Of a stretch of DNA of 64,000 nucleotides, positions 45,428 to 52,487 are shown piece after piece. The notes beneath the pieces are model-generated. The model saw only the letters and a list, made by a program, of their open reading frames with translations. It did no database searches and was not told the origin of the DNA. Every line of letters starts with the position of its first letter. Position 1 is the first letter of the stretch. This DNA is from an uncultured Actinomycetes bacterium. GTDB taxonomy: Bacteria > Actinomycetota > UBA4738 > JBBDTT01. A program made the translations under genes and the position numbers. The stretch spans positions 384,001 to 448,000 of the forward strand of contig CAVUMN010000004.1 of NCBI GenBank assembly GCA_963742735.1. The letters run 5' to 3'.

Positions 45428-45501
<74 letters not shown>

Positions 45502-50352: not shown

Positions 50353-51149
50353 TGGCGAGCGCGATCGCCCTTCGGGACGTGGGGATCCGGTTCAAGGTGC
50401 CCCGCCGAGGCCGCGGAGGTCGAGGTATCCCGCGCCTGCTCGGCCGGAGGCGCTCGAGGTTCTGGGGCATCCGCCACATCAGCTTCGAGGTCGGCCACGG
50501 CGAGGTGGTGGGACTGATCGGTCCCAACGGCTCGGGGAAGTCCACCCTCTTGCGGACGGTGTCGGGGATCTATACACCGAGCGAGGGTCAGGCCATCGTC
50601 GGGGGCCGGGTGGGCCCCCTCCTGTCGGCCGCCGCCGGCCTGGAACCGGGACTGACGGGCTGGGAGAACATCGAGCTTTCGGGGGTCCTGCTCGGCCTGA
50701 CTCGCGCCCAGGCGAAGCAGATCATGCAGCCCGTAGCGGAGTTCGCCGAGATCCTCGAGTTCATGGACGCCCCGGTCAGGGTGTACTCCGCCGGGATGAA
50801 GGCCCGGCTCGGGTTCGCGATCGCGGTGCATACCGACCCGGACATCCTGGCACTGGATGAGGTCATCGCCGTCGGCGATCAGGAGTTCCGCGACCGGAGC
50901 GCGGCCAAGATCCGCGAGTTCATCTCCGCGGGGAAGACGGTCATCGTGACCAGCCACGAGGTCGACAAGATCGCCGACCTGTGCAGCCGGTTCGTGCGGC
51001 TCGAGCGGGGCCGGATGGTCGACGACGGACCTCCAGAGAGGGTCGCCAAGAAATACCTCGATGACCACGGGGGGAGAACCCCGCGGGGCGACCTCCCGCG
51101 AGCCCGCCGGCGCCGGCAGCCGTTGTGGGCCGACGCCGACGACGCCTGA
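50352..51149 (+). CDS. Polysaccharide ABC exporter ATPase (Wzt/TagH)
   Basis: GPNGSGKST, YSAGMKARLGF, LDEVIAVGD. Confidence 0.92.
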   Translation: MASAIALRDVGIRFKVPRRGRGGRGIPRLLGRRRSRFWGIRHISFEVGHGEVVGLIGPNGSGKSTLLRTVSGIYTPSEGQAIVGGRVGPLLSAAAGLEPGLTGWENIELSGVLLGLTRAQAKQIMQPVAEFAEILEFMDAPVRVYSAGMKARLGFAIAVHTDPDILALDEVIAVGDQEFRDRSAAKIREFISAGKTVIVTSHEVDKIADLCSRFVRLERGRMVDDGPPERVAKKYLDDHGGRTPRGDLPRARRRRQPLWADADDA

Positions 51150-51193
51150 GGCCGATCCGTTCGACATTTCGGCAGAAATCAGCGACCGGGTAC

Positions 51194-51222
51194 TTGCCCA
51201 ACCGCGAGCGTTTGCCGATAGT
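51194..51222 (+). promoter_or_regulatory. Putative promoter of the structured RNA
   Basis: TTGCCC-N17-GATAGT; overlaps GCCGATAG (sigma28-like -10). Confidence 0.45.
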
Positions 51223-51228
51223 GCACCC

Positions 51229-51454
51229 ACGAGAGGAAGGAGGTGGTCCTACTTGTCTGATGGCAGTTCGACCCTCGAGGTGACTGGCTGCTGAGTCACC
51301 CCCAGCGGGACCCGAGGCAGACCACCTCCTGAAGGTCCCGCCGCCAAGGGGAAGCTTGGCGGAATCCCAACCAGCTCACCGGCCCCGGAGGTCCCGGAGT
51401 GGTCGACCCGGGCGGCGTTCGCGCCGAGCATCCTCCGGGGTCGCTTCTTTTTTT
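51229..51454 (+). ncRNA. Candidate structured RNA with a sequestered 13-codon ORF; family not recognised
   Basis: At least six stems, an 11-bp long-range pairing and a terminal stem plus T-run in a ~340-bp intergenic gap; ends estimated. Confidence 0.65.
51380..51454 (+). terminator. Branched intrinsic terminator
   Basis: Stem 51380-51391/51432-51443 enclosing two hairpins (one with a TTCG loop), followed by CTTCTTTTTTT. Confidence 0.75.
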
Positions 51455-51490
51455 GCTTCGCTCCGGCCCGGGTGCGATAGGTTCCCCGGC

Positions 51491-51898
51491 GTGAGGCGGA
51501 TCGGCGCGCTCGTGTTGCTGATCGCACTGGTGGGCTGCTCCACGCCCGACCAGAGGGAGTTCTCGCCCCCCGATCGCGTCCGGCTCTCCGACGGAAGCGA
51601 GGGCGTCGACCGCGGCGAGGCCGAGGCGATCGACGGGGCGATCCAGATCCGGATGGTGGAGTTCGCCTTCGAGCCGACCGTGGTGATCGCCCCCGGTGGC
51701 TCGGCCCTGGAGGTCGAGCTCGTCAACGCCGGCCAGAACGTGCACGGGTTCGAGGTGTCCGCACTGGGGATCGACACCACGCTCGCCGAGGGCGCCCGCG
51801 AGACCGTCACCATCGCCGTGCCCGAGAACGGGGCGGTCGTTTTCGAGTGCAAGTTCCACCTGCCGCGCGCGATGCGCGGCGAGATCCGGGCCGGCTGA
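51491..51898 (+). CDS. Cupredoxin-domain lipoprotein
   Basis: Lipobox LVGC; type 1 copper ligands H (VHGF) and C..H....M (CKFHLPRAM). Confidence 0.85.
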   Translation: MRRIGALVLLIALVGCSTPDQREFSPPDRVRLSDGSEGVDRGEAEAIDGAIQIRMVEFAFEPTVVIAPGGSALEVELVNAGQNVHGFEVSALGIDTTLAEGARETVTIAVPENGAVVFECKFHLPRAMRGEIRAG

Positions 51899-51899
51899 G

Positions 51900-52358
51900 T
51901 CAGCCCGCCTGGGCCTGCTCGGCTTTCTTGAGCCCGGCTCGCACCGATTGCGCCACCGGCTTTCCCCGGGTCAGGGCGATCAGGCGGATCGCGAACTTGC
52001 CGAGGAGGCCGATGCCCTCGCGGCTCCAGGTGACGTGGATGCGGCTGCCGCCCTGGTCGCCGGGTGCGATCTCGGCTTGGACGAAGCTGCCGGGCTTCGA
52101 GAAGTTGCTCTCCTTGACGGTCCACTTCACCGTCCCCGGCACCGACCAGTCGTAGCGCTCGATGGCCCAGATCTTCATCCCGGGCGCCTTGGTCCCCTCC
52201 TTGATCTCGGCCCAGGTGTCGCCGACCTCGAGGACCTCGTAGAACTCAGGGGCGATGCCCGGCCAGATCTCCGGCCGGTTGGCGGAGAAATCCAGGAGCA
52301 TCTCCCTGACCTTCTCCGGCGGCAGCGTGGTCTCCACGTCCATCTCGACCTTCGGCAT
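51900..52358 (-). CDS. SRPBCC family protein
   Basis: LLDFS.NRPEIWP, WAIERYDWS.PG.V.W. Confidence 0.75.
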   Translation of the reverse strand: MPKVEMDVETTLPPEKVREMLLDFSANRPEIWPGIAPEFYEVLEVGDTWAEIKEGTKAPGMKIWAIERYDWSVPGTVKWTVKESNFSKPGSFVQAEIAPGDQGGSRIHVTWSREGIGLLGKFAIRLIALTRGKPVAQSVRAGLKKAEQAQAG

Positions 52359-52415: not shown

Positions 52416-52487
52416 GGGGGTGTAGCTCAGTGGTAGAGCACCTGCTTTGCAAGCAGGGGGTCGCCGGTTCGAATCCGGTCACCTCCA
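52416..52487 (+). tRNA. tRNA-Ala (TGC)
   Basis: Acceptor GGGGGTG/CACCTCC with G3-U70; anticodon arm CCTGC-TTTGCAA-GCAGG; TACAAT -10 at 52405. Confidence 0.96.

What the first reader, a model, noticed from the sequence alone, without database searches (positions are those of the whole stretch)
51194..51454. Stand-alone structured RNA with a pseudoknot-locked ribosome binding site and 13-codon ORF
Seen: putative promoter TTGCCC-N17-GATAGT; perfect SD AAGGAGGT, then TTG ORF 51253-51294 (MSDGSSTLEVTGC). AGGAGGTGGTC (51238-51248) is exactly complementary to GACCACCTCCT (51320-51330), which sits in the loop of stem CGGGACC/GGTCCCG (51306-51312/51334-51340), giving a pseudoknot or a mutually exclusive switch. 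Further stems: GGTGACT/AGTCACC over the stop codon, CCGCCAAG/CTTGGCGG, and a three-way terminator with a UUCG hairpin and T-run. The loop strand is one base from the 16S 3' tail GATCACCTCCT. It did not match my recollection of tmRNA, RNase P, SRP, 6C or common riboswitches. Inference: a novel sRNA/peptide system, such as a type I TA-like mRNA, an anti-SD mimic or ribosome-binding RNA, or an attenuator for the downstream cupredoxin (the peptide ends in Cys).
Basis: partly seen in the sequence, partly recalled or inferred. Interest (0 to 1): 0.8.

Follow-up and report, generated by a model that had tools for sequence, protein, structure and literature searches.

The report
Known actinobacterial sRNA with mini-ORF
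This is a diverged copy of a small RNA family already catalogued in actinobacteria (Ms_IGR-5); its function is still unknown, but its very long ribosome-binding site, tiny reading frame and folded shape are conserved widely enough to suggest that ribosomes read it.

Summary
The element is not new. A permissive Rfam scan gives a full-length match to RF02471, Ms_IGR-5 ("Actinobacteria sRNA"), at 51229-51449: 43.7 bits (cut-off 45), E 9.5e-9.

It is single-copy. The Rfam model finds it in 50 of 151 sampled genomes of the phylum, and my own model R1 finds it in 72 of 151.

Comparison of homologues shows five points:
- A 16-nt complement of the genome's own 16S 3' tail lies near the predicted 5' end.
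- Five helices carry compensatory changes.
- A long-range pseudoknot (51268-73 with 51401-06) covaries.
- A 12-15 codon ORF has its stop at a fixed place in 43 of 43 homologues. It has no in-frame stops, against 35 in the other two frames.

The downstream cupredoxin link exists only in the window's own genus, 2 of 43 loci.

Most likely this is a stand-alone, ribosome-engaged RNA whose own anti-SD loop competes with the ribosome. Its cellular role is unknown.

The parts
51194..51222 (+). Promoter-like site: TTGCCC, 17 nt, GATAGT. It ends 6 nt before A51229.
   Evidence: Read. The generic scan did not call it (0 sites). Of 40 unique upstream regions of homologues, 31 have an NANNNT hexamer ending 5-9 nt before the conserved first A, and 23 of these also have a TTG-type -35.
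51229..51449 (+). The RNA gene: a member of the Ms_IGR-5 family (RF02471), about 221 nt.
   Evidence: model positions 1-184 of 184, 43.7 bits, E 9.5e-9; my model R1 scores it 150.7 bits; single copy in the genome; an RNA-library contig is identical over 51235-51379.
51230..51277 (+). Helix P1: CGAG 51230-33 pairs with CUCG 51274-77. It closes the 5' hairpin that holds the SD and the start codon.
   Evidence: Three of its 4 pairs show changes on both sides (for example GC 22, AU 14, GU 3, UA 1), and 98.7% of cells are paired.
51234..51249 (+). Extended Shine-Dalgarno AGGAAGGAGGUGGUCC. It is complementary to the genome's own 16S 3' tail over 16 nt, two of them G.U pairs.
   Evidence: The 16S end was read. 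The computed duplex spans 15 pairs, -25.5 kcal/mol; my tail slice was one base off. The core is invariant in 40 of 40 aligned homologues, and the bases 5' of it vary almost only A<->G.
51253..51294 (+). Mini-ORF of 13 codons, TTG to TGA (MSDGSSTLEVTGC).
   Evidence: the stop lies exactly 5 codons after the GAG of GAGGTG in 43 of 43 homologues (TAG, TGA or TAA). An in-frame start-like codon lies 7-14 nt after GGAGG; 0 in-frame stops against 35 in the other two frames, in 34 unique sequences. NTG codons are 34 in frame and 3 out of frame.
51268..51406 (+). Long-range pseudoknot: UCGACC 51268-73 (ORF codons 6-7) pairs with GGUCGA 51401-06, in the loop of hairpin 51393-97/51408-12.
   Evidence: -8.8 kcal/mol, 6 bp; 60 of 62 homologues were analysed and all give 4-7 bp; cognate pairs average -8.37 and non-cognate -6.25 kcal/mol; 0 of 5000 permutations do as well. 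The rival local helix P2 (GGUC 51245-48 with GACC 51270-73) shows no such signal (786 of 5000).
51279..51380 (+). Helix P3: GGUGACUGG 51279-87 pairs with CCAG(C)UCACC 51371-80, with C51375 bulged. It encloses the variable middle domain.
   Evidence: 9 pairs, 91.7% of cells paired. Column 59/173 shows AU 21, GC 14, GU 3. More variants are visible.
51306..51340 (+). Hairpin whose 21-nt loop carries the anti-SD mimic GACCACCUCCU (51320-30).
   Evidence: Read; the duplex with the SD is -24.0 kcal/mol and 1 of 200 shuffles does as well. A comparable element is found in 21 of 43 homologues at <=10 of 200 shuffles. None is clear in the loci scoring highest against Rfam (L017-L020, L022-L024).
51341..51370 (+). 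Hairpin CCGCCAAG/CUUGGCGG (51341-48/51355-62), followed by the conserved unpaired block GAAUCCCAA (51362-70).
   Evidence: Read and folded. The GAAUCC block is conserved. The 3' strand of the hairpin overlaps the short helix P4 seen in other lineages, so the local fold here is ambiguous.
51384..51454 (+). 3' domain. Stem 51384-92/51432-40 encloses hairpin 51393-51412 (the pseudoknot loop) and a UUCG hairpin at 51413-26, followed by a U-run at 51448-54. Probably an intrinsic terminator.
   Evidence: The hairpin helix is 91.0% paired, with 3 of 4 pairs changed on both sides. The simple terminator scan did not list it.

Best explanation
The element is this genome's single copy of the Ms_IGR-5 (Rfam RF02471) small-RNA family. 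It is an independently transcribed RNA of about 220 nt, not a leader of the neighbouring gene.

Shown here:
- It is homologous to the family.
- A 16-nt complement of the organism's own 16S 3' tail lies about 5 nt from the predicted 5' end.
- A conserved fold exists (helices P1, P3, P4 and a hairpin in the 3' domain) with compensatory changes.
- A covarying pseudoknot joins the middle of the mini-ORF to a loop in the 3' domain.
- A 12-15 codon frame is kept open and ends at a fixed stop across the family.

Inferred, mechanism:
- The 30S subunit binds the extended SD and translates the mini-ORF.
- The ORF runs through the 3' strand of P1, the pseudoknot strand and the 5' strands of P3 and P4. 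Each round of translation therefore unfolds the RNA.
- In this lineage an added hairpin loop that mimics the 16S tail pairs with the SD. Its duplex energy is about that of the SD with the real tail, so the RNA is self-inhibited and ribosome binding has to compete with it.
- The N-terminal half of the peptide is not conserved. The act of translation, or ribosome occupancy, is therefore more likely to matter than the peptide itself.

What the RNA does for the cell is not known.
For: Identity:
- RF02471, model positions 1-184, 43.7 bits, E 9.5e-9.
- 50 of 151 phylum genomes match, 19 of them over the cut-off. There is one hit per genome except one genome, and scores run continuously from 186 to 22 bits.
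- one model (R1) scores the window at 150.7 bits and the top Rfam hits at 117-127 bits.

Fold:
- 24 pairs, 91.8% of cells paired against 82.5% in shuffles.
- 103 cells changed on both sides against 31.9 in shuffles; 0 of 500 shuffles reach this.
- Slid controls pair at 32-43%.

Pseudoknot: (0 of 5000 permutations do as well).

SD and 16S:
- the 16S tail.
- SD with the 16S tail is -25.5 kcal/mol; SD with the internal loop is -22.9.
- -24.0 kcal/mol, matched by 1 of 200 shuffles. The congener L004 keeps 11 pairs, with one A-U to G-C change.

ORF.

Stand-alone gene:
- a promoter-like site at a fixed distance.
- no conserved neighbour. The cupredoxin follows in 2 of 43 loci and a YgfZ-like gene lies upstream in 10 of 43.

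Expression:
- a soil RNA-library contig is identical over 51235-51379, with no cover of the flanks.
- From passages of papers: PMC8079986 reports the family RNA-seq-validated in S. lividans. PMC8780764 reports it as an sRNA transcription unit in S. avermitilis. PMC4974804 reports ribosome footprints in M. abscessus and M. smegmatis.
Against: - The Rfam score is 1.3 bits under the curated cut-off, and the gathering-threshold scan lists nothing here.
- 15 of 43 homologues have CTG and 2 have ATA where the others have TTG, ATG or GTG. One of the ATA cases, L007, reaches the frame only through ATA and has an out-of-frame TTG. Translation may therefore be weak or absent in some lineages.
- The conserved C-terminal codons coincide with helix strands, so coding and structural constraint cannot be separated there.
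- The paper reporting ribosome footprints says many classical non-coding RNAs show them too.
- The anti-SD loop is clear in only 21 of 43 homologues and is unclear in the Rfam-typical members. It cannot be the family's core mechanism.
- The SD is invariant, so SD pairing cannot be tested by covariation.
- Contigs cannot prove transcription, ends or strand. One DNA run also holds only the conserved stretch, with a different flank.
- Homologues are related, so the shuffle and permutation counts overstate independence.
- No experiment on function was found.
Confidence: 0.55

Rival explanations
1. It is simply a small mRNA. The 13-residue peptide is the effector, and the RNA structure only tunes its translation and stability.
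For: The frame is open, the stop is fixed and an in-frame start-like codon is present across the family. The SD is strong. The peptide's C-terminal half carries a T/S-x-E-V motif in most members.
Against: Codons 2-6 vary freely between lineages: SDGSS, HEQLE, PDSDA, SDLW, YEYR, SIDS, NSNH. The conserved codons are exactly those lying in P1, P3 and the pseudoknot strand, whose partners covary. About 130 nt of conserved structure lie 3' of the stop. Weak start codons (TTG, CTG) predominate.
Confidence: 0.15
2. It is a purely non-coding, base-pairing or protein-binding sRNA. The SD-like tract and the conserved loops (GAAUCC block, UGGUC loop) bind targets, and the ORF is a by-product of structural constraints and is not translated.
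For: The family was catalogued as an sRNA. 17 of 43 members lack a canonical start codon. Ribosome footprints are not specific. Unpaired blocks are strongly conserved.
Against: There are 0 in-frame stops against 35 out-of-frame stops in the variable part, which is AT-richer and not structurally constrained. NTG codons are 34 in frame and 3 out. The stop triplet is always TAG, TGA or TAA in 43 of 43. The distance from SD to GAG varies from 31 to 36 nt, yet the frame is kept.
Confidence: 0.17
3. It is a cis-acting leader or attenuator that controls read-through into the downstream cupredoxin gene (51491-51898).
For: It lies on the same strand, 42 nt upstream of a Cupredoxin_1 ORF (E 4.8e-12). 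The peptide ends in Cys.
Against: A cupredoxin follows in only 2 of 43 loci, both in the window's genus. In the second it lies about 900 nt further on. Elsewhere the downstream genes differ and are often convergent: LmeA, a THAP4-like heme-binding protein, DNA ligase. The final Cys is not conserved; it is R, G, S or T elsewhere. I found no alternative antiterminator pairing by inspection.
Confidence: 0.03
4. It is a type I toxin-antitoxin-like mRNA whose SD is locked by long-range pairing.
For: It has a small ORF, and the SD is sequestered by an internal complementary strand.
Against: The peptide is 13 residues, hydrophilic and has no membrane-spanning stretch. The element is single-copy and conserved across the phylum at many different loci. 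No antisense partner is evident. The Rfam scan shows no toxin or antitoxin RNA match.
Confidence: 0.02

Closest known systems
Ms_IGR-5 (Rfam RF02471, 'Actinobacteria sRNA Ms_IGR-5'). By recall and the reference list seen, it was first reported in Mycobacterium smegmatis by Hfq co-immunoprecipitation (Li et al., RNA 19:74). I could not read that paper.
   Same: It gives a full-length match to the covariance model. It shares the same conserved blocks: the ACxxG-AGAAAGGAGGUGGUCC 5' end, GAGGUGRCUG, GAAUCC...CAGxYCACC, and a terminal hairpin. It is single-copy and lies in the same phylum.
   Different: It scores 1.3 bits below the curated cut-off. The middle domain is longer (54 nt against 30 nt of insert in the Rfam alignment) and carries a 16S-tail mimic that the high-scoring members lack. 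The first helix in the Rfam structure line (GGUGGU with GCUGCC) shows no covariation in my alignment. P1, P3 and the pseudoknot, which are absent from that structure line, do covary.
SD-sequestering translational control elements: RNA thermometers such as ROSE and fourU, and translational riboswitch expression platforms (established knowledge, recalled).
   Same: An internal pyrimidine-rich strand pairs with the SD and must be displaced before the 30S can bind.
   Different: There is no downstream full-length gene, and the controlled frame is a 13-codon ORF inside the RNA itself. No ligand pocket or temperature logic is evident. The anti-SD strand is an 11-nt copy of the 16S tail held in a hairpin loop, giving pseudoknot geometry.
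Dual-function sRNAs with a small ORF: SgrS/SgrT, RNAIII/hld, SR1/SR1P (recalled).
   Same: A stand-alone small RNA with its own promoter and terminator carries both a conserved structure and a short ORF.
   Different: The ORF here is shorter, overlaps the conserved helices, and its N-terminal half is not conserved. No base-pairing target is known.
Leader-peptide attenuators and type I toxin mRNAs such as hok and tisB (recalled).
   Same: A short ORF's translation would remodel downstream pairing, and long-range pairing hides the SD.
   Different: There is no conserved downstream operon, no regulatory codon run, and the peptide is not hydrophobic.

Membership tests
Rfam RF02471 Ms_IGR-5 | Significant, full-length match to the family's covariance model. 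| tested here: met
   model positions 1-184 of 184, E 9.5e-9, the only hit in the region below E 1.
Rfam RF02471 Ms_IGR-5 | Score at or above the curators' gathering cut-off (45 bits). | tested here: inconclusive
   The score is 43.7 bits and the gathering scan lists nothing here. The 1.3-bit shortfall goes with a 24-nt longer insert. Same-order relatives score 22-42 bits, and scores rise continuously to 186 bits in other families of the phylum.
Rfam RF02471 Ms_IGR-5 | Homology to accepted members, shown by shared blocks and by one model that covers both. | tested here: met
   Alignment A1. Model R1 scores the window at 150.7 bits and loci that exceed the Rfam cut-off (L017-L019) at 117-127 bits.
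Rfam RF02471 Ms_IGR-5 | The secondary structure of the Rfam model. | tested here: inconclusive
   The terminal hairpin and the stem after the stop codon are matched. The first helix of the model is 87.5% compatible but has no covariation, with 500 of 500 shuffles as good.
Rfam RF02471 Ms_IGR-5 | An independently expressed small RNA. | tested here: inconclusive
   A promoter-like site lies at a fixed distance in 31 of 40 homologues, and a terminator hairpin is present. An RNA-library contig covers 51235-51379 only, but contigs cannot prove a transcript. Expression of family members elsewhere is reported in papers.
Type I toxin-antitoxin mRNA | A small hydrophobic, membrane-active peptide and a cis or trans antisense RNA. 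| tested here: not met
   The peptide MSDGSSTLEVTGC is hydrophilic and its N-terminal half varies. No toxin or antitoxin RNA family was matched. An antisense transcript was not testable.
Leader or attenuator of the downstream gene | A conserved association with the regulated gene. | tested here: not met
   A cupredoxin follows in 2 of 43 loci. No neighbour is shared across lineages.
Bacterial SECIS (UGA read as selenocysteine) | An in-frame UGA conserved as UGA, with a hairpin just downstream and a conserved extension of the frame. | tested here: not met
   The same position is TAG or TAA in most homologues.
tmRNA, RNase P, SRP, 6C, raiA and riboswitches in Rfam 15 | A match to the family's covariance model. 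| tested here: not met
   (E up to 10, 421 nt): the only hits besides RF02471 are four weak ones with E between 1.2 and 8.4, to unrelated families.

The most novel reading that the evidence does not exclude
The Ms_IGR-5 family may be a widespread class of ribosome-sensing RNAs that is not restricted to actinobacteria.

- A maximal SD, complementary to the whole single-stranded 16S tail, recruits 30S subunits to a dispensable mini-ORF.
- Translating that ORF melts P1, P3 and a long-range pseudoknot. The RNA's fold, and so whatever its conserved loops bind, would then report the cell's free-ribosome or initiation capacity.
- In several lineages, including this one, a built-in copy of the 16S tail sets the threshold.
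- Homologues with the same 5' block, P1, P3, GAAUCC block and mini-ORF occur in contigs labelled Sumerlaeia/BRC1 (52-65 bits) and Pyrinomonadaceae (27-37 bits).
Probability: 0.2. Interest if true: 0.75.

Novelty: new member of a known kind. Interest (0 to 1): 0.45.

Why it matters
As a discovery the finding falls away, because the RNA belongs to a catalogued family. The family itself has no assigned function in anything I could find.

The comparison made here points to several features that make it a good candidate for an RNA that works with, or reports on, the ribosome:
- a complement of the whole 16S tail near the predicted 5' end;
- a mini-ORF kept open across the family;
- a covarying pseudoknot that ties the ORF to the 3' domain;
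- a 16S-tail mimic that recurs in several lineages;
- likely members outside Actinomycetota.

These features give concrete mutations to test in culturable, harmless carriers such as Streptomyces and Mycolicibacterium smegmatis.

Tried and rejected
1. Known families. The Rfam gathering scan of the whole window gave only two tRNAs. The permissive scan gave RF02471 plus four weak hits with E between 1.2 and 8.4 (mir-662, Sphinx_1, CC2171, HgcE), which I rejected as chance.

2. Selenocysteine read-through of the TGA. Rejected, because the stop is TAG or TAA in most homologues.

3. It is present here and in the congener but not conserved. The long-range helix P3 uses the same 5' strand and does covary.

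4. The first helix of the Rfam model (SD 3' part with RCUGNC). It is compatible but shows no covariation. It is neither supported nor excluded.

5. The local helix P2 (GGUCC with GGACC). It is thermodynamically possible but has no cognate-specific signal (786 of 5000 permutations). The pseudoknot is preferred.

6. Synteny as a clue to function.
- All-against-all comparison of flanking ORFs in 43 loci and in 120 named loci gave only lineage-specific blocks.
- The neighbours found were a YgfZ-like GCV_T protein, LmeA, a THAP4-like heme-binding protein, NAD-dependent DNA ligase, an amidohydrolase, a short-chain dehydrogenase and an acyl-CoA dehydrogenase. No common theme emerged.
- The stop-to-stop ORFs of these GC-rich loci include many spurious frames.

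7. Literature.
- 'Ms_IGR-5' gave 3 papers. I read passages of all three and one section of PMC4974804.
- 'RF02471' gave 1 paper.
- Guessed M. tuberculosis sRNA names gave 2 papers about another locus, ncRv0810c. These are not relevant.
- A broader search on anti-SD, sRNA and sORF terms found nothing on this RNA (listing only).
- The original description (Li et al.) is not held.
- Supplementary tables that may list coordinates or conditions (Additional file 2 of PMC4974804, Table S1 of PMC4109619) were not seen.

8. The extended SD is not unique. A 13-nt version of the SD pattern occurs 9 times in the genome, and one of these is the 16S gene itself.

9. Sequencing runs.
- Of 24 runs listed, 20 hold part of the stretch, none holds half of its sampled words, and 2 are RNA runs.
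- I laid 4 of them. The raw-read DNA run X21 laid nothing.
- The shared contig end near 51379-51381 in X19 and X20, next to what I recall as Illumina adapter letters, is noted. I do not interpret it as an RNA end.

Unpublished genomes.
- The tallies include G031, G041, G057, G085, G152, G006 and G117.
- The n=43 counts include three loci from such genomes (L007, L034, L043).
- These loci were left out of alignments A1 and A2 and. L055 (G006) was never used.

Rows dropped.
- skipped L061 and L072 (loop not aligned).
- skipped L012 (truncated).
- collapsed identical sequences.
Full report
OBSERVATION. I read 50700-52100. Every feature in the finding is present.
- TTGCCC (51194-99), 17 nt, GATAGT (51217-22).
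- AAGGAGGT at 51237-44.
- A TTG...TGA frame at 51253-51294 encoding MSDGSSTLEVTGC.
- AGGAGGTGGTC (51238-48) is exactly complementary to GACCACCTCCT (51320-30), which lies in the 21-nt loop of the stem 51306-12/51334-40.
- The hairpins GGTGACT/AGTCACC (51279-85/51294-300) and CCGCCAAG/CTTGGCGG (51341-48/51355-62).
- A branched 3' hairpin (stem 51384-92/51432-40) with a UUCG hairpin, followed by a T-run (51448-54).

The genome's own 16S gene ends in GGATCACCTCCTTTCT. The loop strand is therefore one base from the 16S tail, as claimed.

The single-sequence statistics are modest. The fold has z = -2.30, and 5 of 200 shuffles do as well. The generic promoter and terminator scan called nothing on the + strand here.

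IDENTITY. The gathering-threshold Rfam scan of the window lists only two tRNAs. A permissive scan of 51100-51520 gives a full-length match (model positions 1-184 of 184) to RF02471, Ms_IGR-5, 'Actinobacteria sRNA', at 51229-51449. The score is 43.7 bits against a cut-off of 45, with E 9.5e-9.

The stretch is single-copy in the genome. With the Rfam model:
- 15 of 41 relatives match at E<=0.01, none over the cut-off.
- 50 of 151 genomes sampled across the phylum match, 19 of them over the cut-off. There is one hit per genome except one genome with two. Scores run without a gap from 186 bits down to 22.

I built a model, R1, from 40 of these sequences. It scores the window at 150.7 bits and the best Rfam hits at 117-127 bits. 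It finds one copy in 72 of 151 genomes, in an all-or-none pattern by family: for example 10/10, 10/10, 9/10 against 0/10, 0/9, 0/7.

This is a diverged member of a known family.

WHAT THE FAMILY LOOKS LIKE.

(a) The 5' end.
- The conserved block starts with an invariant A (51229).
- In 31 of 40 unique upstream regions an NANNNT hexamer ends 5-9 nt before it, and 23 of these also have a TTG-type -35.
- The RNA therefore probably starts at or next to 51229.

(b) The extended SD.
- Bases 51234-49 (AGGAAGGAGGUGGUCC) can pair with the whole 16S tail over 16 nt, two of them G.U pairs.
- The core is invariant in 40 of 40 aligned homologues. The bases 5' of it vary almost only between A and G, which keeps pairing with the U-rich tail.
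- The computed duplex with the tail is -25.5 kcal/mol. My slice was one base off and counted 15 pairs.
- Such long SDs are rare in this genome but not unique. A 13-nt version occurs 9 times, one of them the 16S gene itself.

(c) The helices.
- RNAalifold and a pair count on A1 support P1 (51230-33/51274-77), P3 (51279-87/51371-80), a short P4, and a hairpin in the 3' domain (51393-97/51408-12).
- 91.8% of cells pair, against 82.5% in shuffles.
- 103 cells changed on both sides, against 31.9 in shuffles.
- 0 of 500 shuffles reach any of the measures, and slid controls pair at 32-43%.
- The first helix in the Rfam structure line shows no covariation.

(d) The pseudoknot.
- The strand just 5' of P1's 3' side (51268-73, UCGACC) pairs with the loop of the 3'-domain hairpin (51401-06, GGUCGA).
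- Across the family the two sides change together: CGACC/GGUCG, AGACC/GGUCU, UGGAC/GUCCA, CCGGAC/GUCCGG, CGGAU/AUCCG, GUGACC/GGUCAC.
- In 60 of 62 published homologues analysed the pairing is 4-7 bp.
- Cognate pairs average -8.37 kcal/mol against -6.25 for non-cognate, and 0 of 5000 permutations do as well.
- The alternative local helix with the SD-adjacent GGUCC shows no such signal: -7.32 against -7.18, 786 of 5000.
- GGUCC-like strands thus occur twice, next to the SD and in the 3' loop, and can compete for one partner.

(e) The mini-ORF.
- In 43 of 43 homologues a stop (TAG, TGA or TAA) lies exactly five codons after the GAG of the invariant GAGGUG.
- An in-frame start-like codon lies 7-14 nt after GGAGG: TTG 18, CTG 15, ATG 4, GTG 4, ATA 2.
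- In the variable, structurally free part of 34 unique published sequences there are 0 in-frame stops, against 35 in the other two frames.
- NTG codons at the right spacing are 34 in frame and 3 out, although the SD-to-GAG distance varies from 31 to 36 nt.
- The N-terminal half of the peptide is not conserved. The conserved C-terminal codons are exactly those lying in P1, the pseudoknot strand and P3.

(f) The anti-SD loop.
- Its duplex with the SD is -24.0 kcal/mol in the window, matched by 1 of 200 shuffles.
- 21 of 43 homologues have a comparable element at <=10 of 200 shuffles. It always lies in the variable domain enclosed by P3/P4.
- The loci that score highest against Rfam have none.
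- The congener L004 keeps 11 pairs with one A-U to G-C change.
- The full 11-bp pairing uses GGUC, which the weak local helix P2 would also need. It is compatible with the pseudoknot.

CONTEXT.
- The downstream ORF (51491-51898) is a Cupredoxin_1 protein. A cupredoxin follows the RNA in only 2 of 43 loci, both in the window's genus.
- Other lineages have a divergent YgfZ-like gene upstream in 10 of 43 loci. Their downstream genes are convergent or unrelated: LmeA, a THAP4-like heme-binding protein, DNA ligase, an amidohydrolase and dehydrogenases.
- There is no conserved cis target.

EXPRESSION.
- In a soil RNA library (X19) a 155-nt contig is identical to 51235-51379, and nothing covers the flanks 50900-51209 or 51396-51800.
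- A second RNA run (X20) holds a relative over 51261-51381.
- A DNA run (X1) holds 51210-51429 identically but with a different upstream flank.
- Contigs cannot prove transcription or ends.
- From passages of papers: the family member is RNA-seq-validated in S. lividans (PMC8079986). It is a stand-alone sRNA transcription unit in S. avermitilis (PMC8780764). It shows ribosome footprints in M. abscessus and M. smegmatis, though the authors note that many non-coding RNAs do too (PMC4974804).

BEYOND THE PHYLUM.
- Most records are labelled Acidimicrobiia, Solirubrobacterales, Actinomycetota, Streptomyces, Nocardia, Gordonia or Mycolicibacterium.
- Several are labelled Pyrinomonadaceae/Acidobacteriota, Sumerlaeia/BRC1, Planctomycetota and others.
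- I gave 28 of the 120 loci, those with non-actinobacterial or unclassified labels, to R1.
- R1 scores the Sumerlaeia/BRC1 loci at 52-65 bits, two 'uncultured bacterium' loci at 87-95 bits, and the Pyrinomonadaceae/Acidobacteria loci at 27-37 bits.
- These loci were pre-selected by the pattern, so the scores are not independent evidence.
- By eye they also carry features that were not in the pattern: P1, P3, the AAUCC...CAGUCCACC block, a promoter-like site, a terminator and an ATG mini-ORF.
- Single contigs labelled Nitrospinaceae or Armatimonadetes may be binning errors.
- The Planctomycetota loci score 12-22 bits, and their ORF reads the shared motif in another frame. I do not count them as members.

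MECHANISM.

Shown: homology, the fold, the pseudoknot, the 16S complementarity, and selection for an open frame with a fixed stop.

Inferred:
- The 30S subunit binds the maximal SD and the mini-ORF is translated.
- The ORF runs through P1's 3' strand, the pseudoknot strand and the 5' strands of P3 and P4. Translation must therefore unfold the RNA.
- In this lineage the 16S-tail mimic competes with the ribosome for the SD at about equal duplex energy: -22.9 against -25.5 kcal/mol.
- The variable N-terminal half, and the predominance of weak start codons, argue that ribosome occupancy matters more than the peptide.

I hold this reading at about 0.55 overall. Identity is about 0.9. The ribosome-coupled switch is about 0.4. 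The rivals are a functional micropeptide (0.15), a purely non-coding sRNA (0.17), a cupredoxin leader (0.03) and a type I toxin (0.02).

VERDICT. This is a new, diverged member of a known family whose function is unknown. Interest is moderate: the finding is not new, but the family's ribosome-directed anatomy deserves an experiment. Claims that include unpublished genomes, and the rows I dropped, are listed under Tried and rejected.

Noticed in passing
L144, L107, L085, L091 (records labelled Planctomycetota or Brocadiia; positions): These four loci share GAAAGGAGGTG(A/G)TCCAGTG. A 12-16 codon GTG-started ORF follows and reads the AGGTGGC motif in a different frame (…R/L-R-W…). It ends in or beside a strong local hairpin, in the loop in at least L144. 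R1 scores are only 12-22 bits. This may be a separate family built on the same 'maximal SD plus mini-ORF' plan.
   Followed up: partly
L083, L090, L105, L109, L118, L120, L123, L135 (Pyrinomonadaceae/Acidobacteriota) and L110, L137, L150, L159 (Sumerlaeia/BRC1): These are likely members of the family outside Actinomycetota. Each has an ATG mini-ORF and, in the acidobacterial set, a perfect 16S complement, GGAAAGGAGGTGATCC. The acidobacterial set has a large insertion in the middle domain and no obvious pseudoknot loop.
   Followed up: partly
G060 (contigs C126 and C17): This is the only sampled genome with two matches to the family: 145 and 138 bits with R1. Its contamination is given as 2%.
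   Followed up: no
window 45428-45501 and 52416-52487: Two tRNA genes on the + strand, at 72.2 and 75.8 bits. The second lies about 1 kb downstream of the RNA.
   Followed up: no
own genome: C1:167335, C3:271095, C3:685684, C4:118271, C4:775146, C4:932025, C4:1238610: Seven further sites carry a 13-nt extended SD of the same type, RRGGAGGTGRTCC. The reversed-pattern control found 2. The genes they precede were not examined.
   Followed up: no
window 51210-51429 in run X1: A DNA contig from a soil run is identical over these 220 nt, but upstream of 51210 it continues into 208 nt unlike the window. The RNA gene seems better conserved than its surroundings between strains.
   Followed up: no
window 51182-51205, minus strand: The simple scan lists a terminator-like hairpin on the minus strand that overlaps the promoter-like region. 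No minus-strand gene ends there, so it is probably a chance match.
   Followed up: no
window 51379-51381: Both RNA-library contigs (X19, and X20 from a relative) end here, at the 3' end of helix P3. In X20 the following letters look like sequencing adapter, by recall. This could hint at a processed form of about 150 nt, or it could be a library artefact.
   Followed up: no
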